This document shows positions 1 through 28,062 of a stretch of 64,000 nt of DNA, piece after piece; the first letter of the stretch is position 1; every line of letters begins with the position of its first letter. The translations under genes were made by a program, and so were the position numbers. The stretch is from assembly GCA_947648495.1 (NCBI GenBank), contig CANSOA010000009.1, positions 5,397 through 69,396 of the forward strand, given 5' to 3'. The notes under the pieces were generated by a model, which was not told the origin of the DNA, searched no databases, and saw nothing but the letters and a program-made list of their open reading frames with translations. This DNA comes from an uncultured Clostridium sp. (lineage in GTDB: Bacteria; Bacillota; Clostridia; TANB77; CAG-508).

Positions 1-537
1 GAAGGAGTGACAAGATTAGAGGTAGAAGATGGCACAAGGATTGTTTTACTGGCTTCTGAAGAAAATTTTGGTGGTTGGTATAACGCTAATACTGACACTC
101 TTGTAGCACAGACAGCAGTATATGATAAATATACTGTACACTCGGATGTAGAGTTCGAGGTGCGTTACAGTGATGAACCAATTAAACCAGAACCGAGAGT
201 ATATTTTTTCGGCAATCAAATTGAAGTTAATTCAGATAAATATAGCGTGTACATCGCCAACGATATACCTTCGGAAGTTGAAAAGGTTGAATGGGGGATT
301 ATATTTACTACAAATGATGCGAAAGATATTTCGGAAGAAATGATGACTGTGGAGATGGCTGAAGATTCTGATATTATTAAAAAAGCCGCTGTGGATAATT
401 CTAAGGTTACTATGACCATTGCGTCTAAATTACCAGCAACTTCGATGACCAAGAAATTCCGTGTATATGCAATAATTAAGAACGCAACTGGTAAAACGGA
501 AACTATTTACAGCGAAGTTCTTGAGCAAACATTTTAG
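1..537 (+). CDS. hypothetical protein, 3' portion of a gene that starts upstream of the window
   Basis: The reading frame is open from position 1 in the frame of the 7..537 ORF. No domain recognised. Confidence 0.4.
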   Translation, partial: EGVTRLEVEDGTRIVLLASEENFGGWYNANTDTLVAQTAVYDKYTVHSDVEFEVRYSDEPIKPEPRVYFFGNQIEVNSDKYSVYIANDIPSEVEKVEWGIIFTTNDAKDISEEMMTVEMAEDSDIIKKAAVDNSKVTMTIASKLPATSMTKKFRVYAIIKNATGKTETIYSEVLEQTF

Positions 538-631: not shown

Positions 632-660
632 TTGACAAATAGGAGAATATTTGCTATAAT
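632..660 (+). promoter_or_regulatory. sigma-A type promoter for the precursor-peptide operon (TTGACA-17-TATAAT, TG-extended)
   Basis: TTGACA at 632-637, a 17-nt spacer, TATAAT at 655-660 with TG at -15/-14. It lies about 40 nt upstream of the 702 ATG. Confidence 0.6.
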
Positions 661-701
661 ATTATTAAGATATTATAGAATTAGGAAAGTGGAGGTAAGT
701 A

Positions 702-860
702 ATGGATAATATAGATGATTTAAATGTAGTACATAACGATAGTATAATAGAAGAAAATATAGAACAATATGATAGTGTAATGGCAGATATTACTACTTTT
801 TCAGCACGAGAAGCAAGTGATTCTTCTAGTATAGATGGAAATACTGGTATTGATATGTAG
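702..860 (+). CDS. candidate RiPP precursor peptide (52 aa; MDNIDDLNVVHNDSIIEENIEQYDSVMADITTF / SAREASDSSSIDGNTGIDM)
   Basis: RBS GTGGAGGT is 8 nt upstream of the ATG. The peptide has an acidic leader and a Ser/Asp/Gly-rich C-terminus. It is directly followed by a hairpin and then the kinase, RRE and exporter genes. It is absent from the ORF track because it is shorter than 60 aa. Confidence 0.55.
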   Translation: MDNIDDLNVVHNDSIIEENIEQYDSVMADITTFSAREASDSSSIDGNTGIDM

Positions 861-894
861 GATTAACTTTTTAATTTGAAAAATCGGAAAAACT

Positions 895-928
895 CGAGAC
901 AGAGTAAGACTCTGTCTCGTTTTTTTTA
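895..928 (+). terminator. intrinsic terminator/attenuator between precursor and modification genes
   Basis: CGAGACAGAGT-AAG-ACTCTGTCTCG followed by T8. Confidence 0.7.
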
Positions 929-941
929 TGAGGAGAAACAT

Positions 942-1661
942 ATGAAATATAAAATAGCTGATATTGTGGTAGAGTTTGAAGCTAAATATCAAGTTTTAGA
1001 AAATAGAGCTAAAAAGTATAGTTTGGTAGATGATTCTGCTTCTTCTTTTAAAATTTCTGTGAGTGATAAAGCGATTCAAGAAGAAATTGCTTTAAGTCCT
1101 TTACTAGATTTGGAATTCTCAGAATATATGTTGGTTGGTTCAAAATTTTATCGAGAGTTATTGAACTATAATGGCTGTCTTCTACATGCTTCAGCAGTTG
1201 TAGTAGAGGAGGAAGCCTATCTTTTTTCTGCTGATTGTGGAACAGGAAAGTCAACGCATACATCATTGTGGATGAAATATTTGGCAGATAAAACCCCCTA
1301 TATTTTAAATGATGATAAACCTGCTATTCGCCTTATAGATAATAAAATTTATGCTTATGGAACGCCATTTTCAGGAAAACATGACTTAAGTGAAAATAAA
1401 AAAGTTAAATTAAAAGCAATTTGTTTTTTGGAGCAATCGAAGATTAATTCTATTAGGAGACTTGAACCGAAAGAAGCGATTAAACTATTTTTGGAACAGA
1501 GTATTCGAAAATTGAAGGAAGATGAAATGTTGAAATTTTTGGATTTGTTAGAAATTTTGTTAAAAGAAATTCCTATGTATAAATTGTATTGCAATATGAG
1601 TAACGAAGCGGTACAATTGTCGTATACGACTATGAAAGGAGAGGTTACAAATGAAGATTAA
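942..1661 (+). CDS. HPr kinase/phosphorylase C-terminal-domain-like P-loop kinase (RiPP kinase-like)
   Basis: The motif LHASAVVVEEEAYLFSADCGTGKST is a HprK-type Walker A. RBS AGGAG lies 6 nt before the ATG at 942. Confidence 0.6.
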   Translation: MKYKIADIVVEFEAKYQVLENRAKKYSLVDDSASSFKISVSDKAIQEEIALSPLLDLEFSEYMLVGSKFYRELLNYNGCLLHASAVVVEEEAYLFSADCGTGKSTHTSLWMKYLADKTPYILNDDKPAIRLIDNKIYAYGTPFSGKHDLSENKKVKLKAICFLEQSKINSIRRLEPKEAIKLFLEQSIRKLKEDEMLKFLDLLEILLKEIPMYKLYCNMSNEAVQLSYTTMKGEVTNED

Positions 1662-1917
1662 AGAAGGGTTTATTTTAAGAGAAGTTGTAAACACGATTGT
1701 GGTTGTGCCAACTGGAAAGGCAGTAGAAGAGTTTCAAGGGATGATTACTTTAAGTAAGTCCGCAAAATTTGTTTGGGAGCTATTGCAAGAAGATAGAACG
1801 GTGGAAGAAATAGCGAATCAATTGGCAGAAAAATATAAAATTGATTTTCAAAGAGCTAAAAATGATGTAGAAAGTTTTATTAAAAAACTGAAAGATGCTA
1901 AAGTAATTGAGGAATAG
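1651..1917 (+). CDS. PqqD-family protein (RiPP recognition element)
   Basis: An 88-aa protein with the typical PqqD pattern (ILREV..TIVVVP..G.......SAKFVWELL...TVEEIANQLAEKY.ID...AKNDVESFIKKL). Its start overlaps the kinase stop, indicating translational coupling. Confidence 0.65.
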   Translation: MKIKEGFILREVVNTIVVVPTGKAVEEFQGMITLSKSAKFVWELLQEDRTVEEIANQLAEKYKIDFQRAKNDVESFIKKLKDAKVIEE

Positions 1918-1943
1918 AAAACGAAGAAAGGAAAAAAATTATA

Positions 1944-3617
1944 TTGAAAGATTTAAAAACACTAAGATGGATTTTTTGCAAAACAAAATCACAAAGCTTT
2001 CATTTTATTTTGCTAAATATAATTAATATTGTTTATTCGGCACTGAGTGTTTATTTAATTTTGGTGTCTAAAAATGTGATTGATTCTGCGGTGTCTCAAT
2101 CGGTGGATGGACTGAGAAAATATATAATAGAATTAATTGTGATATGTTTTATAGAAATTGGCTTGAAAACGATTTTGGGCTCGATTAATGCTGTTACGTG
2201 TGCTAAATTGGAAATTCATTTTAAACAAGATGTTTTAAATACGATTTTAAAAAAAGATTATGAACAAGTTTCAAAATTTCATAGTGGGGAATTGATGACA
2301 AGGGTTGTCTCAGATGTGAATATTATTATTGATACTTTGGTCGCTTTGCTTCCTAATATTTTGTCTATGATGACAAAGTTAATTTGTGCGTTGTTATTGT
2401 TGTTTCATGTTAGCAAAGAATTGGTTGTGCTTTTTTTGGTGGCGGGTTTGATTTTGTTTGCTGTTGTGAATATCTTTAAGCCATTTTTGAAGAAAATACA
2501 TAAAAGGTTGCAAGAGGCAAGTTCCAATGTTCGTTTACTGTTTAAAGAGATTTTTGATAATTTGATTGTGATTAAAATTTTTAATAGTGAAGAGGTCATT
2601 TCTGATAAATCTATGCAGTTGCAAAGTGTTAGGTATGACCTACAAATGAAGCGTAGAAGTATTTCGATTGCATCAAGTGCGGGATTTAATATTATTTATC
2701 AGATTGGTTATTTTTTGACTTTGATTTGGGGGGCTTATAATTTATATTTGCAAAATATTACGGTTGGTGGTTTGACTTCAATTGTACAACTGATTGCACA
2801 GGTTCAGTCTCCGATTATAGGATTGTCGAGGTCGTTTCAAAGTATGTTTACGATGTTGGCTTCTGGTGAGAGAATTATGGAGCTTGAGAATTTAAAAGAT
2901 GATGTAAAAGTGCAAGAAATGGATAAAAATTGTTTGTATGAGAATTTGAAAAGTATTGTGCTAAGAAGTGTTCGTTTTACTTATAAGAATAAGAGGATTT
3001 TTGAGAAAACTGATTTTGAAGTTAAAAAAGGTGAAATTGTTGCGATTTATGGTGAATCTGGCATTGGAAAAAGCACGCTTTTGAAGTTGATTTTGGGAAT
3101 TATTCAGAAAGATGATGGCGAGATTTTTTTTGAGTTGGAAGATGGAAGCGTGCAAGAAATAGGGAATGATACCAGAAATATGTTCGCTTATGTGCCACAA
3201 GGCAAATTTATTTTGAGTGGAACTATTCGAGAAAATGTTACATTTGTTAATCCAAATATTTCTGAGAAAGCTTTGCAAGAGGCGTTGGAAGTTAGTAATT
3301 GTAAACTGTTTTTGGATGATTTGCCAGATGGCTTGGACACGAAGATTGGAGAAAGAGGATGTGGTTTGTCAGAAGGACAGTTGCAGAGATTGGCAATTGC
3401 AAGAGCTTTGGTGAGCGAAGCTCCGATTTTGATTTTAGACGAGATTACGTCTAGTTTGGATAGTAAGACAGAAGAAGAGGTTTTGCATAAGATTAAGAAT
3501 TTAAAAAATAGGACGTGCATTATTGTGACACATCGAAATAGTATTTCCAAGATTTGCGATCGAGAATTTGTGGTTGAGAATAAGAAGATAAACGAAAAGG
3601 AAAAAAAAGATGAATGA
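1944..3617 (+). CDS. ABC transporter, fused permease/ATP-binding protein (peptide exporter type)
   Basis: An N-terminal 6-TM region, then Walker A GESGIGKST, the ABC signature LSEGQLQRLAIARAL and Walker B ILILDE. It uses a TTG start. Confidence 0.8.
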   Translation: MKDLKTLRWIFCKTKSQSFHFILLNIINIVYSALSVYLILVSKNVIDSAVSQSVDGLRKYIIELIVICFIEIGLKTILGSINAVTCAKLEIHFKQDVLNTILKKDYEQVSKFHSGELMTRVVSDVNIIIDTLVALLPNILSMMTKLICALLLLFHVSKELVVLFLVAGLILFAVVNIFKPFLKKIHKRLQEASSNVRLLFKEIFDNLIVIKIFNSEEVISDKSMQLQSVRYDLQMKRRSISIASSAGFNIIYQIGYFLTLIWGAYNLYLQNITVGGLTSIVQLIAQVQSPIIGLSRSFQSMFTMLASGERIMELENLKDDVKVQEMDKNCLYENLKSIVLRSVRFTYKNKRIFEKTDFEVKKGEIVAIYGESGIGKSTLLKLILGIIQKDDGEIFFELEDGSVQEIGNDTRNMFAYVPQGKFILSGTIRENVTFVNPNISEKALQEALEVSNCKLFLDDLPDGLDTKIGERGCGLSEGQLQRLAIARALVSEAPILILDEITSSLDSKTEEEVLHKIKNLKNRTCIIVTHRNSISKICDREFVVENKKINEKEKKDE

Positions 3618-4752
3618 AGCGAAAGAATTATTGAGAATAATTAAAAATTTTATAGAAGATGCAAACTGTGAGATAAATGAAAATATGGATGAAAAAGCTT
3701 TGTATCATTTGGCAAAAATGCATAAGGTAAGTAATTTTTTGATTTGTTGGGCTGAAAAAAGTTGTCAATCTGAGGAAATAAAGAGTAAAATTCAGCAAGA
3801 TTTTAATCATCAAATTATTAAGGATACGAATGAAAATATTGAATTGGAGCATATATTAAATAACTTTGAGGAGGCGGGAATTGATACGCTTGTTGTCAAA
3901 GGTGTTACGATGAAAGAGGTGTATCCGCAAGATTATATGAGACAAATGTGTGATATGGATCTTATGATTCATCAAAAGGATTTTAAAAAGGCTTCTAAGA
4001 TTATGAAACACTTAGGATTTGAAGAGTTTTACGATCATGAAAAACATTTGGTTTTTAGCAAAAATTCTTTGATTCTTGTTGAGATGCATCGAAAATTAAT
4101 TCCAGGTGGCGATGTTTCGCATGAGTATTTTAATGCGATTTGGCCGTTGTGTATTCCATATAAAAATTATGATAAGGTGTTTCGTATGAATTTGGAGGAT
4201 ACGTATTTGTTTTGCATGATTCATTTGATTCGCCATTTTAAGTATGCTGGGATTGAGATTCGAGATGTTTTGGATGTTTATTTGTTTTGGGAGAAGTATA
4301 AAAATGATTTTTGTTTTGAGAAATTAAATCGAAAATTGGAGGAGTTTGGGGCAAAAAGGTTTGAAGAAAATATCCGAAAAATAGCGTATAAATGGTTTGG
4401 CGATACTCAAGTCAATGATTTTGATGAGGTGGAAGCGTTCATTTTAAAGGGAGCGAGCATTGAAAATAATGTTCATTATGCAGTAGGTGAAAAGAAGGGA
4501 AAAGTAAATTATTTGTTTCGATTGCTGTTTCCGGAATTTAAGGTGATGAAGGAAAAATATCCTGTTTTGAAGAAAATGCCTATTTTATTGCCTGTTACTT
4601 GGGGAGCGCGTTTGTTGAAGGATGTCTTTTCGCAGGAAACAACGGTGAAGGCGAGAATGAAGCAAATTAAATTAATTCAAGAAGTGAAACAGGAAGATGT
4701 GGAAGAAATTCAAGATATTTATGAGAAATTAGGAATTGTGGAAAGGAAATAG
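3610..4752 (+). CDS. NTP_transf_5-type putative nucleotidyltransferase
   Basis: The motif LVVKGVTMKEVYPQDYMRQMCDMDLMI matches the hG[GS]...DhDhh nucleotidyltransferase fold signature of the uncharacterised-NTase family. It overlaps the ABC gene by 8 nt. Confidence 0.5.
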   Translation: MNEAKELLRIIKNFIEDANCEINENMDEKALYHLAKMHKVSNFLICWAEKSCQSEEIKSKIQQDFNHQIIKDTNENIELEHILNNFEEAGIDTLVVKGVTMKEVYPQDYMRQMCDMDLMIHQKDFKKASKIMKHLGFEEFYDHEKHLVFSKNSLILVEMHRKLIPGGDVSHEYFNAIWPLCIPYKNYDKVFRMNLEDTYLFCMIHLIRHFKYAGIEIRDVLDVYLFWEKYKNDFCFEKLNRKLEEFGAKRFEENIRKIAYKWFGDTQVNDFDEVEAFILKGASIENNVHYAVGEKKGKVNYLFRLLFPEFKVMKEKYPVLKKMPILLPVTWGARLLKDVFSQETTVKARMKQIKLIQEVKQEDVEEIQDIYEKLGIVERK

Positions 4753-4756
4753 AAAA

Positions 4757-5479
4757 ATGTTTGTGGAGCATGAAGTTTTTATTGGGCTTAGAGATGTTGC
4801 GCTTGACAACAAGGTGACGAATACGGCATTACTTTCTTATTTGGAGGATGCAGGTGGCGTCCATTCTAATTTGGTAGGGTTTGGTCTGAACGATATTCCG
4901 AATGTGAAAAGAAGTTGGGTACTTTTGGGCTGGAAAATTGAGATTTTTGAAAGACCGAAGTATGGAGATAAAATTAGTATTAAAACTTGGTCGCGTGGGA
5001 TTGAAAAGTTGTATGCATATCGTGATTTTGAGATTTTAGATGAAAATAAAGAAGTAATTGGAATTGCAACTTCGAAGTGGGTTTTGGTAGATATTGAAAA
5101 TGGTAAAATTTCAAGAATTGATCCAAAAGTTTGTGAAGCTTATACTGTGGAAGAAAGAAAAGTATTTGAAGAGGTGGATTTAGGAAAATTAGTGGAACCG
5201 AATTTGTATATAGATTCTACAATGTTTACGGTTAATCGAAGTTTGATTGATGTGAATAATCATTTGCATAATATTTATTTTATGGATATTGCCAATGAAG
5301 TATTGCCAATGGAAATTTATAGGAATGCGGATTTTAAATGGATTCAAATGATGTGCAAGAAGGAAATTAAGTTGGGGGATACGGTGAAGGTGTTTTATCA
5401 AGTGGAAAATGGGGAACATGTTGTGGTGATTAAAAGTGAGGATGAGAAGTGTTTGCATGGAATTATTCGATTGAAATAA
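4757..5479 (+). CDS. acyl-ACP thioesterase (FatA/FatB-like hotdog fold)
   Basis: About 240 aa with an acyl-ACP thioesterase-like sequence (NTALLSYLEDAGGVHSNLVGFGLNDIPNVKRSWVLLGWKIEI...). RBS GGAAAGGAAA precedes the ATG at 4757. Confidence 0.55.
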   Translation: MFVEHEVFIGLRDVALDNKVTNTALLSYLEDAGGVHSNLVGFGLNDIPNVKRSWVLLGWKIEIFERPKYGDKISIKTWSRGIEKLYAYRDFEILDENKEVIGIATSKWVLVDIENGKISRIDPKVCEAYTVEERKVFEEVDLGKLVEPNLYIDSTMFTVNRSLIDVNNHLHNIYFMDIANEVLPMEIYRNADFKWIQMMCKKEIKLGDTVKVFYQVENGEHVVVIKSEDEKCLHGIIRLK

Positions 5480-5632: not shown

Positions 5633-6049
5633 ATGCAACAAGGTTATTGTATTCGGAGTTTGGATGTATCAGCTATTATGTATGACAATGAAGAGGATCG
5701 AAAATTTAAACAAAATGGCGGAAAAATTCCTTTAAAGATAAAAGGAGAAACTTTTTCAGATATTCCGTTTAAATTGCCAATTCGAGGAAAAGCGTATGAT
5801 TTTGCAAGAAGGAATGATGTGTATTATGATCCAATGGTATACGTTGTTTTATATGCTGATGAAGAACATCTGCAGTGCTTGTTTGTCTTTCGCTTTATAG
5901 CCAGTAGTGGCGCGTGTGATATTGCACGGTGTGTCGGGAAAAACTCAGTAAGGAGACACTGGGGAAGAGTCCGACGATACATTCAAAGATATGGGAATGC
6001 AATTCGAGATGGAGTGATTGCGAAAAATTCTCACTTAGAGTTTGATTGA
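5633..6049 (+). CDS. hypothetical protein (only the N-terminal ~90 aa look convincingly coding)
   Basis: RBS AAAGGAG at 5618-5624, ATG at 5633. The distal part is compositionally atypical (GC-richer, two in-frame CGG codons). Confidence 0.3.
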   Translation: MQQGYCIRSLDVSAIMYDNEEDRKFKQNGGKIPLKIKGETFSDIPFKLPIRGKAYDFARRNDVYYDPMVYVVLYADEEHLQCLFVFRFIASSGACDIARCVGKNSVRRHWGRVRRYIQRYGNAIRDGVIAKNSHLEFD

Positions 6050-8207: not shown

Positions 8208-8855
8208 ATGATGAAGGTGTTTGAGGAAAAAGACGTAAAGAAAATGCAACTCCAACTTTCTGATGGACGGCTGATGCCTTTGGAAGACTTACTTGAGGAT
8301 TACGAAAGACTTCTGAAGGAAAAAACTCCCCAAAATAAGCTGGAGGTCGGCAAATGGTTTCTCATTAACAGAGATGTTATTGAGAAAAACCAAGAGAAAA
8401 TCCGTCGCGTGTGCGGTGAAGAAAGAGATTCTAAAGGAAGACTATATCGGGAGAGATTTGGAGAATCGAATGAAATCGCTAATGCGGAGCCTGAGAGATA
8501 TCCTCGCCGAATTTGGACTTTTGTCTTCAAGAAGAACTGGAAGTATAAGAAAGAACAGAAAATGCGAAATATGTGTAAAAAGAAAGGAGACGGAATGTGT
8601 GATGAAGTAATCTGTGATTTAGAGTTGCAAATGAGAATTTGTAATGGGGAATCTGCAGAGGATTTATTCAAAAAAGCCGATAAACTTCCACGTGTAAGAG
8701 TTATACAACTTAGAGACGGTGGAACTGGCTATTTTGGTGGCGGTGCTGATTACAATTACAATGCTCCGCCCGCAGACCTTTGCGGGTACGGTTTCGATCC
8801 TGATTACGAGCACTACGGAGGCACGCCATATGCGTTCCGTCGAGAGCTTTCGTAG
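8208..8855 (+). CDS. hypothetical protein (GC-richer than its surroundings)
   Basis: RBS GCAGGAGGA 7 nt before the ATG at 8208. No domain recognised. It contains two in-frame CGG codons, and an alternative-frame ORF overlaps it at 8374-8610. Confidence 0.45.
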   Translation: MMKVFEEKDVKKMQLQLSDGRLMPLEDLLEDYERLLKEKTPQNKLEVGKWFLINRDVIEKNQEKIRRVCGEERDSKGRLYRERFGESNEIANAEPERYPRRIWTFVFKKNWKYKKEQKMRNMCKKKGDGMCDEVICDLELQMRICNGESAEDLFKKADKLPRVRVIQLRDGGTGYFGGGADYNYNAPPADLCGYGFDPDYEHYGGTPYAFRRELS

Positions 8856-10161: not shown

Positions 10162-10258
10162 TATTTTATCTGTATAAAAATCAAAAACAAGCACAACTTA
10201 AAATAGAAAATCATATAATACAGTGAGCAAATAAAATTTTATTTTAAGGATGATGAAA

Positions 10259-11405
10259 ATGATACAGAATATTAGATATTTTGACCATGCTGCAACAACA
10301 GCAATCGATACACGAGTATTAAACGAAATGATGCCCTATTTAACAGAAAATTTTGGAAATCCTTCTTCTATGTATCAAATTGGAAGGAAAAATAAAGAAG
10401 CTATTCATTTAGCAAGAAAAAAAGTTGCCAATGTTCTAAAATGCAATCCAAACGAAATTTATTTTACCAGTGGCGGAACGGAAAGTGATAATTTAGTCAT
10501 CAAAGGAATTGCAATCGCAAACAAAAGACGTGGAAATCATATAATCACAACGAAAATTGAACATCCAGCTGTTTTAAATACCTGTAGTTTTTTGGAAAAA
10601 TATATGGGATTTCATGTTACGTATTTGAATGTGGATAGCAAAGGTAGAGTTGATTTAAACGAACTCGAAAGAGCCATTAACAGACAAACCATTTTAATTA
10701 GTATCATGTTTGCCAACAACGAAATTGGGACGATTCAAGATATGGAAGCCATCGGAAGACTGGCTAGACGTTATGGTATATATTTCCACACAGATGCGGT
10801 GCAAGCAGTTGGAAATATTGATATTAACGTAAAAAAATTAGGAATTTCAGCTCTTTGCATGTCAGCCCACAAATTTTATGGACCAAAAGGAATGGGAGTA
10901 GCCTATATTGCTAAAAATGTTAATTTTGTACGTATAGCAGATGGAGGACATCAAGAACAAGATAAGCGTTCTGGTACAGAAAATGTAGCAGGTATTGTAG
11001 GACTTCGGAAAAGCTATTGAAATTGCGCAAAATGAATTACCAGAATATAATAAAAAATTAAAAGCACTTCGTGATTATTATTTTGCCAAAGTAGAAAAAA
11101 ATATTCCCTTTGTCCGAATCAATGGTGACTTAGAAAATCGTTTGTCAGGTAATGCCAATATTTGCTTTAAAGGTGTAGATGGCGGAAGATTGCTTCAAGA
11201 ATTGGATCAAGTTGGAATTTGTGCTTCCAGTGGTTCTGCGTGTAGTGCAGGATTATTGAATCCGTCACATGTTTTGCTAGCAATCGGTGTGCCTGCCAAT
11301 ATTGCTAGAAGCAGTTTAAGAGTCACGTTTGGTAGAGAAAATACAATCGAAGATGTGGATTATTTAGTGGAAAATTTAGCAAGAATTGTGCAAAAATTAA
11401 GATAG
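10259..11405 (+). CDS. nifS: cysteine desulfurase NifS/IscS family, interrupted by a +1 frameshift near 11006 as sequenced
   Basis: N-terminal part FDHAATT....SAHKFYGPKGMGVAYI (PLP-Lys), C-terminal part in frame +1 with the active-site loop ASSGSACSAG. The join is at GGA CTT CGG, where removing C11006 restores GLGKAIEIA. Confidence 0.75.
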
Positions 11406-25788: not shown

Positions 25789-28062
25789 ATGAATAAAAGT
25801 GGTGAGAAAATGGAAATAGATGTGCAAAATAGAGTAAGTTTTGAAACAGAATTTAATCCAAGACAGTATTTACAAAAGAAAGTAAGTTACAAAACAACAT
25901 TGAAGCAAAGACAGCGAATGATACAAGAAGAAAATTTGCATATAGCTCAAGAAATTTCAAAGGAGCAGTTTCAAAAGTTATATAAAAAATATGGTATGGG
26001 ACTTGAACAAACACAATTTGCTAGGTGTTTTTTAGATATTGATTATGATTCTTGTTATAATTTGCGAGAGGGAAAGATTAAGAAAGCTAGAATTTTATCA
26101 AAAGAATATGTTCCCTATCAAGAATTTTTAAAGGTTCAACAAAAAGTGCAAGAAACATATGCAGTAGTGTCAGGTGAATCAGTAAACTATGATAAAATCA
26201 TGGAAATGTACGATAATACAGCTGGAAAATTGTCTTTAAGGATGTTTGTTGAAGAAGTTTTAAATATCACACAGCATCAGCTTGATTGTATCAAATCAAA
26301 TAGAACAAAGAACAGAAAGATATTAAGACCGCTATCTTTTGATTGGCAAGAGATTTTTGAAATACAAACAAAAGTAGTTCAAGAATCAGGAAGACATATG
26401 GATGAAAGAATTACTTTAGCAGAATTTGAGGAATTATACAATCAATTTGGAAAAAATCTAGATAAAAGGCTATTTGCAATGAAAGTTTTACAAATACCAT
26501 CTTATCAAGTAAATTCATTTTTTTTAGGAAGATGTAAAACAACAAGAATCTTTACAGAATATAATATGAATCCAGATGCTATTTGTAAGTTAAGAGAAGA
26601 AGTAATTTTAAATGAAAATCTTCATTTGGAAGATTCAATTTCAATTGAAGATTTTGAAAGACTGTATCAAAAATATGGTGGAATTTTGTCAGAGGAAATT
26701 TTTGCTGAGGAAATTTTAGATATTAGTATAAATTCTGTAAAAAATATGAAAAACGGTGGAGAGGCGCCTATATTAACTGATGTAGAAATTCCACAAGAAT
26801 ATTTAGCAGCTATTCGAGAAAAAATTATTCTCGAATATAATTTTGAACAAAATGATATGATAACAATTGAACAGGTTAGAAATCTATATGAAAGACTTGG
26901 AAATAGATTGTCAGAAAAACAATTTATTCAGAAAGTATTAGATACTAAAGAATATGTTTATGGATATTATAAAGAGAACTTGGAGAAAGGAAATTTAGAA
27001 AGCAAAATTTCTATATTAAAAAATCACCAAACAACAGATTTTGAAGAATTAAGGAAACGAGTGATTGAAAAAGAGCACCTGCATTATGGTGATATAAAGA
27101 GTTATAAGGAAATAGAGAAATTACATTAAAAATATGCACCTAATGTAAAAGGAAGCTTATTTGCTCAAAAGGTTTTAGATATATGCTCAGATATTTATTC
27201 AAAATTGAAATCTCCTAAGGCAAAAAAATATCAAAGAACACAAATACTTTTAAATGAAAAATTACCAACCGATGAAGAAATTGAAAAAATAAAAGCAACT
27301 ATGATTATAAACAATAATTTACATACAAACGGTAAAATGCAATATCCTGAATTTACAAAATATTATTTAAAATATGGTGGAGTTATGCCAGAAGATATGT
27401 TTGCGCAAAGAACTTTAGACATTGAAAGAGTAGCATTATGTGAAATGAGAGAAGATGAGAATAATGAAATACCTATTTTATTAGATACAACAGAAGATGA
27501 AATTCAAAAGTTAAAGGAGAAAATGCAAAAAGATAGCACAAAAACAATAGCAAGACTTCAAAAAAGAGTAGAAGATATTATAGAAAAATATAGCTATACT
27601 GAACTAAATGTAGGAATTGTAAAAAAATATTTAGATATGGTTCAAGAAAATGTTGTTCCAAAGAATTTTGATAAATCAAAATTAGATTTCCTAAAAGAAA
27701 GCATAGAATTTGCTCAAGGAGGAAGAAAAGACATTGAATATTTTGCTCAAGTGTGCATAGCTTTTCGTCAATACCAAAAAGCAAATCGATTTATATCAGA
27801 AAATATTGATAATGCTACTGTAAAAAAAGAAGAAAGAGCTAAATTGAGAGAATTGCAAAAAAGTATTACTCATACAATCAAAAGAGAAAAAGCTATCAAT
27901 ATGATTTATGAAGATGGGGTTACGGACATCCCGCTAATCATGAAAGAAACAGGACTTCCAGAGACAGAAATATTACAAATAAGAAAAATAAAAACGATAG
28001 AAAAGGAGAAATTACAAAATCCTGTTTCTAAGAGAAATGGCGATAATAAGGAGGAAAAATAA
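25789..28062 (+). CDS. repeat protein of unknown function, ~110-aa repeats with an F(A/I)xxxLDI motif, interrupted by a single in-frame TAA at 27127-27129
   Basis: ORFs 25789..27129 and 27205..28062 are in the same frame. The repeat motif continues uninterrupted across the stop codon. Confidence 0.5.

What the first reader, a model, noticed from the sequence alone, without database searches (positions are those of the whole stretch)
702..928. Precursor peptide obeys lasso-core rules (Thr at -2, Ser1, Asp7, 19-aa core) and is followed by an attenuator hairpin
The C-terminal 19 residues SAREASDSSSIDGNTGIDM start with Ser and have Asp at core position 7, the macrolactam acceptor position. The leader ends ...ADITTF, which puts Thr at -2, a hallmark of lasso leaders. 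The tail is a Ser-rich stretch (SSS) that would suit the adjacent HprK-like kinase. The terminator between precursor and enzymes is the classic stoichiometry-setting arrangement of RiPP operons. The tail lacks bulky plug residues and there is no YxxP leader motif, so the lasso assignment is not secure.
Basis: inference. Interest (0 to 1): 0.6.

Follow-up and report, generated by a model that had tools for sequence, protein, structure and literature searches.

The report
Linear phosphopeptide precursor, not lasso
The 52-codon gene is real and is most likely the substrate peptide of the kinase, chaperone, exporter and nucleotidyltransferase genes behind it, but the locus has no lasso ring-forming enzymes and instead matches the linear polyphosphorylated peptide pathway described in 2026, in a gut-Clostridia form that lacks the usual leader peptidase.

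Summary
The ORF (702-860), its C-terminal sequence and the hairpin (895-919 plus T8) are all present as described. A perfect sigma-70 promoter and a GGAGG ribosome-binding site precede the ORF. The lasso reading fails. The operon is A, HprK/ScmC-like kinase, PqqD RRE, MsbA-like ABC exporter and NTP_transf_5. No lasso cyclase or B2 protease lies in the operon or among the large ORFs of the 64-kb window. Thr-2/Ser1/Asp7 are kept only in two near-identical relatives and are absent from the other orthologous loci. About 10% of shuffles of the peptide give a lasso-like parse. The gene set equals the lppA-K-B-S-D-N cluster of Linear Polyphosphorylated Peptides (Popov et al. 2026, PMC13381572), minus the SpI-like peptidase LppS, which about half of the related gut loci do carry. 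Best reading: a linear peptide whose leader is held by the RRE and whose internal Ser (S41-43) is phosphorylated. That Ser run sits at the same distance from a Tyr as the phospho-Ser of LppA. Caveat: profiles built without this peptide do not detect it, so the assignment rests on synteny. The terminator hairpin recurs in 10 of 11 distinct orthologous loci, and no promoter-like site lies between it and the kinase gene, so read-through is required. Verdict: new variant of a known kind.

The parts
632..660 (+). Sigma-70-type promoter of the operon: TTGACA, 17 nt, TATAAT, with a TG extension
   Evidence: 12 of 12 matches. Conserved in the two close relatives.
691..695 (+). Ribosome-binding site GGAGG, 6 nt before the ATG of the peptide gene
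   Evidence: Every orthologous small ORF has a comparable GGAGG/AGGAGG site.
702..860 (+). Precursor peptide gene A (52 aa; acidic, 25% D+E, 19% S+T, no Cys)
   Evidence: A small ORF occupies the same position in every orthologous A-K-B1-D-N locus.
768..800 (+). Candidate RRE-binding leader segment Y23-F33 (YDSVMADITTF). It can be aligned to the family motif YExPxxEVIxF. This is inference, not statistically supported.
   Evidence: Alignments. hhalign to Bacilli LPP leaders gives P = 0.008. Leave-one-out HMM and PSSM tests do not detect it.
822..830 (+). Ser run S41-S43, the predicted phosphorylation site. It lies 18-20 residues after Y23, against 18 for Tyr-16 to phospho-Ser3 in LppA.
   Evidence: The column aligned to S42 is Ser in 59 and Thr in 6 of 72 family peptides. 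LppA S3 phosphorylation is from PMC13381572. The assignment here is inference.
895..927 (+). Intrinsic-terminator-like hairpin (stem 895-919) plus T8 (920-927). Read as a leaky terminator between the precursor and the enzyme genes.
   Evidence: An equivalent hairpin plus T-run, with differing stem sequences, occurs in 10 of 11 distinct orthologous loci. No promoter-like site lies between it and the K start.
942..1661 (+). K: HprK/ScmC-like P-loop kinase (239 aa). RBS GAGGAG at 930-935.
   Evidence: TIGR04249 ScmC, E = 1.8e-6, below the curated cut-off. PF27840 ScmC in precomputed hits. AlphaFold model pLDDT 88. Best PDB fold matches are HprK/P and PEPCK. G100-T105 and D124-D125 are invariant in 22 homologues.
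1651..1917 (+). B1: discrete PqqD-type RiPP recognition element (88 aa). Overlaps K by 11 nt.
   Evidence: PF05402, E = 3e-18. Below the cut-offs of the curated lasso PqqD families. BLAST: 44% identity to the RRE next to an SpI-like peptidase in Lachnoclostridium An76; 1e-11 to 8e-5 to the LppB sequences tried; 7e-7 and 0.014 to two paeninodin-type B1.
1944..3617 (+). D: MsbA-like ABC exporter (557 aa, no peptidase domain)
   Evidence: PF00664 plus PF00005. TIGR02203 MsbA, E = 3.9e-73.
3610..4752 (+). N: NTP_transf_5 nucleotidyltransferase-fold protein (380 aa). Overlaps D by 8 nt.
   Evidence: PF14907, E = 8e-45. D115xD117 is invariant in 42 distinct homologues. This is the same Pfam family as the 'putative NTP transferase' of LPP clusters.
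4757..5479 (+). Acyl-ACP thioesterase gene, 4 nt after N. Membership of the system is doubtful; it is probably a syntenic housekeeping neighbour.
   Evidence: PF01643 and PF20791. Present after N in most but not all orthologous loci (absent in L017 and L111). It is the most conserved gene of the block (84% identity to L001; dN/dS 0.07).

Best explanation
ORF 702-860 is the precursor (A) of a non-lasso, RRE-dependent peptide pathway. The pathway is of the Linear Polyphosphorylated Peptide (LPP) type and the gene order is A-K-B1-D-N.

Proposed mechanism:
- The PqqD protein B1 binds the leader of A. The candidate segment is Y23-F33.
- B1 presents A to the HprK/ScmC-like kinase K, which phosphorylates an internal Ser of the S41-S43 run, possibly more than once.
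- The NTP_transf_5 protein N further decorates the phosphate. Its relative PsmN is needed for hexose addition to phospho-Ser in pseudomycoidin.
- The MsbA-like pump D exports the linear product.
- This sub-type has no SpI-like leader peptidase. The leader is therefore either kept or removed by an enzyme encoded elsewhere.
- All five genes are transcribed from the promoter at 632-660. The hairpin at 895-927 stops most transcripts after A, which gives excess precursor mRNA, and lets a fraction read through into K-B1-D-N.

Shown here: gene content, synteny, catalytic motifs, K fold class, hairpin conservation and purifying selection. Inferred: the binding segment, the phosphorylated residue, the role of N and the read-through ratio.
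For: Gene families:
- K hits TIGR04249/PF27840 and has an HprK/P-like fold.
- B1 is PF05402, D hits TIGR02203 and N is PF14907.
- These are the same families that Popov et al. group as HprK kinase, discrete RRE, MsbA transporter and NTP transferase in LPP clusters (Supplementary Data 2; text). The order lppA-K-B-(S)-D-N also matches.
- LppK polyphosphorylates Ser3 of the LppA core, 18 residues after the leader Tyr. In this peptide Y23 to S41/S42/S43 is 18/19/20.

Comparative evidence:
- The same A-K-B1-D-N block, with a 37-55-aa ORF with a strong ribosome-binding site in the A position, occurs in all orthologous loci examined.
- Related gut loci carry an LppS homologue. Hits to TIGR02228 have E = 9e-6 to 6e-4. 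BLAST to LppS gives 1e-7 to 7e-12. 50 of 107 sequences searched have one.
- The peptides of those loci form a large family, MKExYExPxxEVIEFxxEDVIT(T/M)S plus a hypervariable core. It has 1473 clusters at 50% identity.

Functional state:
- Catalytic motifs are intact and invariant: K GTGKST and D124-D125; N D115xD117.
- dN/dS is 0.11-0.26 for A, K, B1, D and N.

Terminator.
Against: - Sequence-level homology of this peptide to the family is not demonstrable. An HMM built without it and its two close relatives ranks it 9th of 586 small ORFs of the window (E = 15).
- A PSSM of the leader built from the S-containing family does not pick the YDSVMADITTF segment.
- The Pro of YxxP is Val here. The FET motif of Bacilli LPP is absent, and hhalign between the alignments is weak (P = 0.005-0.008).
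- The defining peptidase LppS is missing from the whole window.
- K scores far below the curated ScmC cut-off (27.5 against 125 bits).
- No product has been observed for any cluster of this sub-type. LppN was inactive in the published heterologous system.
- The terminator looks strong, and read-through was not measured.
Confidence: 0.65

Rival explanations
1. Lasso peptide precursor. The leader would end at TTF, and Ser34 would be joined to Asp40 in a macrolactam ring with a 12-residue tail.
For: The literal pattern T-2/S1/D7 is present. A PqqD RRE, an HprK-like kinase and NTP_transf_5 also accompany paeninodin- and pseudomycoidin-type lasso clusters.
Against: No Asn-synthetase-like cyclase and no transglutaminase-like B2 lie in the operon. 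B1 ends at 1917 and D starts at 1944. None of the 10 other large ORFs of the window (424-633 aa) is a cyclase. None of the related loci inspected shows a cyclase. T-2/S1/D7 are absent in 7 of the 9 other orthologous peptides; the lasso-like parses in L002 and L111 fall at other positions. 10% of shuffles give a lasso-like parse. B1 is below the cut-offs of the lasso PqqD families. The tail has no bulky plug residues.
Confidence: 0.03
2. The small ORF is not the substrate. It would be a fortuitous or purely regulatory upstream ORF, and K/B1/N/D would act on a peptide or protein encoded elsewhere.
For: Leave-one-out profiles fail to recognise the peptide. The peptides of orthologous loci are too divergent to align reliably.
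Against: A consensus promoter and a strong ribosome-binding site precede it. One close relative has an in-frame deletion, and dN/dS is 0.26. An ORF of similar size and composition lies in the same slot in every orthologous locus. No other small ORF in the 64-kb window resembles the family. A hypervariable core next to conserved enzymes is the usual RiPP pattern. The stop codon is 34 nt before the hairpin, and I saw no alternative antiterminator pairing, so translation-coupled attenuation is unlikely.
Confidence: 0.1
3. The locus is a decaying remnant of an LPP-type cluster that lost its peptidase and no longer makes a product.
For: LppS is absent. The leader motif is degenerate. In the L005 and L006 lineage the kinase gene has a 1-nt insertion in the P-loop codons.
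Against: All five ORFs are intact here, with invariant catalytic residues. dN/dS is 0.11-0.26. The peptidase-less architecture is kept across K homologues of 55-98% identity from many samples.
Confidence: 0.1
4. The hairpin is a full stop, not an attenuator. The peptide gene would be monocistronic and K-B1-D-N would have their own promoter.
For: The stem is long and perfect with T8, which is a strong terminator. In L002 and L111 about 100 nt of AT-rich spacer follow the hairpin and could hold a promoter.
Against: In this window only 14 nt separate the T-run from the K start codon, and they hold the ribosome-binding site. The scan finds no promoter-like site between 749 and 994. The same tight spacing is seen in L001, L005, L107, L108 and L110.
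Confidence: 0.1

Closest known systems
Linear Polyphosphorylated Peptides (LPP): lppA-K-B-S-D-N of Paenibacillus alginolyticus DSM5050 and about 126 Bacillota clusters (Popov et al., Nat Commun 2026, PMC13381572)
   Same: Same enzyme families, in the same order: HprK-like kinase (TIGR04249 class), discrete PqqD RRE, MsbA-like exporter and NTP_transf_5. There is no macrolactam cyclase. The small precursor has a leader Tyr and a Ser 18-20 residues downstream, followed by a variable C-terminal part.
   Different: [quoted passage not shown] The region after the Ser run is very short (about 9-11 residues, against 45 in LppA). The host is a gut Clostridia lineage rather than Bacilli, and the locus is not in a capsule locus. 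The RRE is nearest to one that the paper lists as 'RRE others' (Lachnoclostridium An76), not as an LPP RRE.
Paeninodin and pseudomycoidin lasso peptide clusters (PadeK, PsmK, PsmN)
   Same: An HprK-like kinase that phosphorylates a Ser of the precursor before processing. An NTP_transf_5 protein needed for hexose addition on the phosphate. A discrete PqqD B1 and an ABC exporter.
   Different: Those clusters have the cyclase C and the peptidase B2. Their leaders carry WxxP and Thr-2, and the phosphorylated Ser is the C-terminal residue. Here the C-terminus is Met and no cyclase or B2 exists.
SynChlorMet cassette (ScmC TIGR04249 with ScmD TIGR04248)
   Same: K and B1 give weak hits to ScmC and ScmD (E = 1.8e-6 and 8e-4). 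K homologues carry Pfam PF27840 'ScmC'.
   Different: Both scores are far below the curated cut-offs. The radical SAM/SPASM partners of that cassette are absent from the operon.
RiPP and bacteriocin operons with a leaky terminator after the structural gene (for example the nisin and subtilin operons; from general knowledge, not checked here)
   Same: A hairpin plus T-run lies directly after the precursor gene and before the enzyme genes, which lack a promoter of their own.
   Different: Read-through has not been measured here, and the class of product differs.

Membership tests
Lasso peptides | Macrolactam synthetase C (Asn-synthetase-like) in the cluster | tested here: not met
   Pfam scan of all operon proteins and of 10 other large ORFs (424-633 aa) of the window. 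None was seen in the related loci inspected.
Lasso peptides | Leader peptidase B2 (transglutaminase-like Cys protease) | tested here: not met
   No such hit. There is no unassigned ORF in the operon; the gap between B1 and D is 26 nt.
Lasso peptides | Discrete or fused RRE (B1, PqqD-like) | tested here: met
   PF05402, E = 3e-18. However, it is below the cut-offs of NF033530 and NF033536, the lasso PqqD families.
Lasso peptides | Leader with Y/WxxP and conserved Thr at -2; core with G/A/S/C at position 1 and D/E at 7-9 | tested here: not met
   The leader reads YDSV, not YxxP. T-2/S1/D7 are present here and in two near-identical relatives only, and are absent in other orthologous peptides. The pattern arises in 10% of shuffles.
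Linear Polyphosphorylated Peptides (LPP) | HprK-like kinase (TIGR04249/04352/04355 class) | tested here: met
   The class definition is in Supplementary Data 2 of PMC13381572. P-loop and DD motif are invariant.
Linear Polyphosphorylated Peptides (LPP) | Discrete PqqD RRE next to the kinase | tested here: met
   It is closer to the best LppB sequences (best E = 1e-11) than to the two paeninodin-type B1 tried (7e-7 and 0.014), though the ranges overlap.
Linear Polyphosphorylated Peptides (LPP) | NTP_transf_5 protein and MsbA-like exporter | tested here: met
   PF14907, E = 8e-45. TIGR02203, E = 3.9e-73.
Linear Polyphosphorylated Peptides (LPP) | Archaeal-type SpI-like leader peptidase LppS (TIGR02228), the marker by which the family was found | tested here: not met
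   tblastn of three gut LppS-like proteins and five sequences from the published SpI-like peptidase table (four LppS and the Lachnoclostridium An76 SpI) finds nothing better than E = 0.14 in the 64-kb window. It is present in 50 of 107 related sequences searched.
Linear Polyphosphorylated Peptides (LPP) | Precursor with N-terminal YxxPxVLxHQxIxFETxxS and a variable C-terminus | tested here: inconclusive
   The Tyr and a Ser at the right spacing are present. Pro and FET are absent. hhalign gives P = 0.008. Leave-one-out HMM and PSSM tests are negative.
Linear Polyphosphorylated Peptides (LPP) | No macrolactam cyclase (linear product) | tested here: met
Linear Polyphosphorylated Peptides (LPP) | Kinase-dependent (poly)phosphorylation of one Ser near the leader/core junction | not testable with these tools
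   Needs mass spectrometry of the expressed cluster.
SynChlorMet cassette | ScmC and ScmD together with radical SAM/SPASM enzymes ScmE and ScmF | tested here: not met
   No radical SAM hit in the operon. The ScmC and ScmD scores are far below the curated cut-offs.

The most novel reading that the evidence does not exclude
The peptidase-less A-K-B1-D-N clusters of gut Clostridia form a distinct branch of the LPP-type pathway. In this reading the phospho-decorated peptide is exported with its leader, or is matured by a non-dedicated protease. The rapid divergence of the peptide between species, against conserved enzymes, would reflect a role in strain-specific signalling or competition in the gut. 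The wider gut family (at least 1473 peptide clusters and at least 3891 kinase homologues) would then be one of the larger uncharacterised RiPP-like families of the human microbiome.
Probability: 0.3. Interest if true: 0.6.

Novelty: new variant of a known kind. Interest (0 to 1): 0.45.

Why it matters
LPPs were described only in 2026, from Bacilli. They were found through their SpI-like peptidase, and neither their final structure nor their biological role is known. This locus shows the same kinase, RRE, exporter and nucleotidyltransferase module at a conserved chromosomal site in gut Clostridia, without that peptidase and with a very short, fast-evolving peptide. A peptidase-guided search therefore misses part of the family.

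The short peptide gives a simple substrate for asking three questions: which Ser the kinase marks, what the NTP_transf_5 enzyme adds, and whether leader removal is needed at all. It is also a cautionary case for genome mining. PqqD plus an HprK-like kinase plus a Thr-x-Ser...Asp pattern does not make a lasso peptide.

Tried and rejected
- Pfam and NCBIfam scans of the peptide and of six family peptides found no curated family.
- Sequence search of K (profile) and N against PDB sequences found nothing. Only the fold search was informative.
- The single-sequence scan of genome contigs returned only 13 loci. The profile scan of metagenome contigs was needed.
- I first read the alignment QYDSVMADITTF ~ QYEKPTIEIIVF as evidence that the window peptide shares the family leader. 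Leave-one-out HMM and PSSM tests did not support this. A regex test that did single it out (1 of 734 ORFs, 0 of 50,000 shuffles) was circular, because Val at the Pro position came from the window peptide itself. I therefore give that test no weight.
- The register between Bacilli LPP leaders and the gut family is ambiguous. hhalign deletes 3 residues and pairs IxFET with IxFDx. Counting back from the conserved Ser gives a 1-residue offset instead. I could not resolve this.
- Literature searches for ScmC/SynChlorMet, PF14907 and RRE-Finder with kinase gave nothing relevant. The LPP paper surfaced only through 'paeninodin' plus 'kinase'.
- Rfam found no family above threshold around the hairpin.
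- Source names for the window proteins: none on record.
- A B1-peptide complex prediction could not be run, because fused sequences are not accepted.

Full report
**1. Observation**

The ORF at 702-860 encodes MDNIDDLNVVHNDSIIEENIEQYDSVMADITTFSAREASDSSSIDGNTGIDM. It is preceded by a 12/12 TTGACA-17-TATAAT promoter with a TG extension at 632-660 and by GGAGG at 691-695. An 11-bp perfect stem (895-919) plus T8 (920-927) follows. The intergenic fold is -21.7 kcal/mol, z = -3.3. No Rfam family reaches its threshold there.

Two close relatives (87% and 79% identical) keep the promoter, ribosome-binding site, frame and hairpin. One has an in-frame 12-nt deletion. So the ORF and the hairpin are real. 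That pattern is weak evidence. 10.4% of shuffles of the same peptide give a lasso-like parse under general rules, and 1.7% give the exact one.

**2. Surroundings**

Four tightly packed genes follow the peptide gene:
- K (942-1661) hits the ScmC family (TIGR04249, E = 1.8e-6; PF27840 in precomputed hits). Its AlphaFold model (pLDDT 88) matches the HprK/P catalytic domain and PEPCK best.
- B1 (1651-1917) is a discrete PqqD RRE.
- D (1944-3617) is an MsbA-like ABC exporter without a peptidase domain.
- N (3610-4752) is NTP_transf_5, PF14907.

An acyl-ACP thioesterase gene follows 4 nt later and is probably only a neighbour. K/B1 and D/N overlap by 11 and 8 nt.

**3. Why it is not a lasso cluster**

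The operon holds no Asn-synthetase-like cyclase and no transglutaminase-like B2, and it has no unassigned ORF. The 10 other large ORFs scanned (424-633 aa) are topoisomerase, PurD, CTP synthase, GroEL, a histidine kinase and similar, plus one (25789-27129) with no Pfam match. B1 scores below the cut-offs of the curated lasso PqqD families.

**4. Orthologous loci**

The same block A-K-B1-D-N, usually followed by the thioesterase, sits after a large Flg_new-repeat surface protein gene in many gut MAGs and metagenome contigs. K identity runs from 55 to 98%. Each locus has a 37-55-aa ORF with a strong ribosome-binding site in the A slot. All of these peptides are Cys-free and most are acidic, though the L017 peptide has more K+R (19%) than D+E (12%). 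They are so divergent that they cannot be aligned reliably. Examples are MPEDIIPEDPNAIFVQPFADTIQQDGTTVEPRERGSEQSTNSSTSTNTMD and MEDPEMQIQLFTDDKIIKANNPSMQGGTTGGEEGDDL.

T-2/S1/D7 occur only in the window peptide and its two near-identical relatives. Seven of the nine other orthologous peptides have no lasso-like parse at all, and two have one at a different place. In a 73-sequence family alignment the three columns read as follows:
- T32 column: E 31, K 22, L 5, A 5, P 3, T 2.
- S34 column: D 35, E 16, P 8, A 5, S 3.
- D40 column: T 25, M 15, I 8, A 4, S 3, L 3, D 3.

**5. The wider family and the literature**

More distant K-B1 loci (K identity 41-48%) carry peptides with a clear shared leader. 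It reads MKExYExPxxEVIEFxxEDVIT(T/M)S, followed by a hypervariable D/N/G-rich core that often ends near a Trp. A profile search finds 1473 clusters at 50% identity with E <= 0.001. The kinase family has at least 3891 members.

About half of the related sequences also encode a 144-152-aa protein with a G-x-S-M-x-P motif next to B1, K or D (50 of 107 searched). It hits archaeal-type signal peptidase I, TIGR02228, at E = 9e-6 to 6e-4.

Popov et al. 2026 (PMC13381572) describe exactly this gene set in Bacilli as Linear Polyphosphorylated Peptides:
- The cluster is lppA-K-B-S-D-N, with no cyclase.
- The leader motif is YxxPxVLxHQxIxFETxxS.
- The SpI-like peptidase LppS cleaves after Thr-1.
- LppK adds several phosphates to Ser3 of the core.
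- LppN was inactive in their heterologous host.

Their Supplementary Data 2 groups TIGR04249/04352/04355 as 'HprK kinase', NTP_transf_5 as 'NTP transferase', PqqD as 'discrete RRE', TIGR02228 as 'SpI' and TIGR02203 as 'MsbA'. These are the families hit by the proteins here.

Using sequences from their Supplementary Data 1, I ran direct comparisons:
- The gut peptidases match LppS at E = 1e-7 to 7e-12.
- The window B1 matches the best LppB sequences (best E = 1e-11) better than the two paeninodin-type B1 tried (7e-7 and 0.014), though the weakest LppB hits overlap that range.
- The best match of the window B1, at 44% identity, is the RRE beside an SpI-like peptidase of Lachnoclostridium An76. 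The paper lists that RRE as 'RRE others'.

The window itself has no LppS homologue; the best tblastn E-value is 0.14.

**6. Limits of the peptide assignment**

MAFFT aligns window residues QYDSVMADITTF with the family's QYEKPTIEIIVF, and S42 with the nearly invariant Ser (S 59 and T 6 of 72). The distance from Y23 to S41/42/43 is 18/19/20 residues, against 18 from Tyr-16 to phospho-Ser3 in LppA. I reconstructed the LppA leader from the published primers as MEENTKREQKLYARPMVLSQQPVRFET|AQS.

Unbiased tests fail, however:
- An HMM built without the window peptide ranks it 9th of 586 small ORFs (E = 15).
- An HMM built from the S-containing family alone ranks it 24th.
- A leader PSSM does not select the YDSV segment.
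- hhalign between Bacilli LPP leaders and the gut alignments is weak (P = 0.005-0.008).

The claim that this ORF is the LPP-type substrate therefore rests on position, synteny, expression signals and composition. It does not rest on sequence homology of the peptide.

**7. Functional state**

K keeps the P-loop GTGKST (100-105) and D124-D125. These are invariant in 22 homologues and by inference correspond to the metal-binding D158/D159 of PsmK. N keeps D115xD117 in all 42 distinct homologues, by inference matching PsmN D134/D136. Against L104 (K 85% identical), dN/dS is 0.26 (A), 0.11 (K), 0.12 (B1), 0.16 (D) and 0.16 (N). The cluster is under purifying selection and is not decaying.

**8. Mechanism proposed**

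- B1 binds the leader of A.
- K phosphorylates an internal Ser of the S41-S43 run, possibly more than once.
- N decorates the phosphate. In pseudomycoidin PsmN is required for one or two hexoses on phospho-Ser.
- D exports a linear product.
- Leader removal, if any, must use a protease encoded outside the cluster.

The support comes by analogy with LppK, which targets an internal Ser, rather than PadeK, which targets a C-terminal Ser; the C-terminus here is Met.

**9. The hairpin**

A stem-loop plus T-run directly after the peptide gene is found in 10 of 11 distinct peptidase-less loci. The stems differ in sequence, for example CGAGACAGAGT/ACTCTGTCTCG, TCGAGGCGG/CTTCCTCGA and GAGATAGAG/CTCTGTCTC.

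In the window only 14 nt, holding the GAGGAG ribosome-binding site, separate the T-run from the K start codon. No promoter-like site lies between 749 and 994. K-B1-D-N must therefore be expressed by read-through. I saw no alternative antiterminator pairing, and the stop codon is 34 nt upstream of the stem. This is a plain leaky terminator, or a 3' stabiliser of the short transcript, rather than a regulated attenuator. The read-through ratio is unmeasured.

**10. Verdict**

The locus works like, and is most likely a peptidase-less, leader-divergent relative of, the LPP pathway. I do not file it as a full member, because the defining peptidase is absent and the precursor motif test is inconclusive. 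It is a new variant of a known kind, of moderate interest.

Noticed in passing
L005:1196-1215 and L006:994-1010 (kinase gene): In two MAG loci from different samples the kinase gene carries a 1-nt insertion within the P-loop codons (…SANS RNW* against …GTGKST in another frame). K is split into two frames there, while the peptide, B1, D and N stay open. This may be lineage-specific inactivation of the kinase or a shared assembly error.
   Followed up: partly
window 702-860 compared with 942-5479: Against L104, synonymous divergence of the peptide gene (dS 0.31, from only 7 synonymous differences) is much lower than that of the five genes behind it (dS 0.54-1.07). Possible causes are constraint at the RNA level, recent exchange of the peptide gene, or small-sample noise.
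   Followed up: no
window 10250-11405: A class-V aminotransferase / cysteine desulfurase (NifS/IscS-like) gene is split by a frameshift near 11005-11020. The reading frame continues as …GKAIEIAQNELPEY… in another frame. It is either a pseudogene or a sequencing error.
   Followed up: partly
L040:3259-5943, L040:2900-3238, L100:8207-9172: LPP-like clusters of other gut lineages carry extra conserved genes with no Pfam or NCBIfam family: an 894-aa protein, a 112-aa probable membrane protein and a 321-aa protein. They lie between the precursor and K or B1 and may be additional tailoring or immunity functions.
   Followed up: partly
P0124 (88 aa), from the protein database: One database entry is a tandem fusion of two precursor copies (MKELYETPTVEFIEFDSEEVITMS… twice). 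Several loci carry two or three precursor genes, for example L075:5568-5702 with 5712-5870, and L034:5598-5741 with 8311-8460.
   Followed up: no
window 7-537 and upstream genes of L108 and L110: The peptide operon always lies directly downstream of a very large Flg_new-repeat (PF09479/PF18998) surface protein gene. The window starts inside its 3' end. Bacilli LPP clusters are reported within capsule loci, so a link to the cell surface may be shared.
   Followed up: no
window 4757-5479: The acyl-ACP thioesterase gene starts 4 nt after N with no terminator between them, so it is probably co-transcribed with the peptide operon. It is absent after N in L017 and L111.
   Followed up: partly
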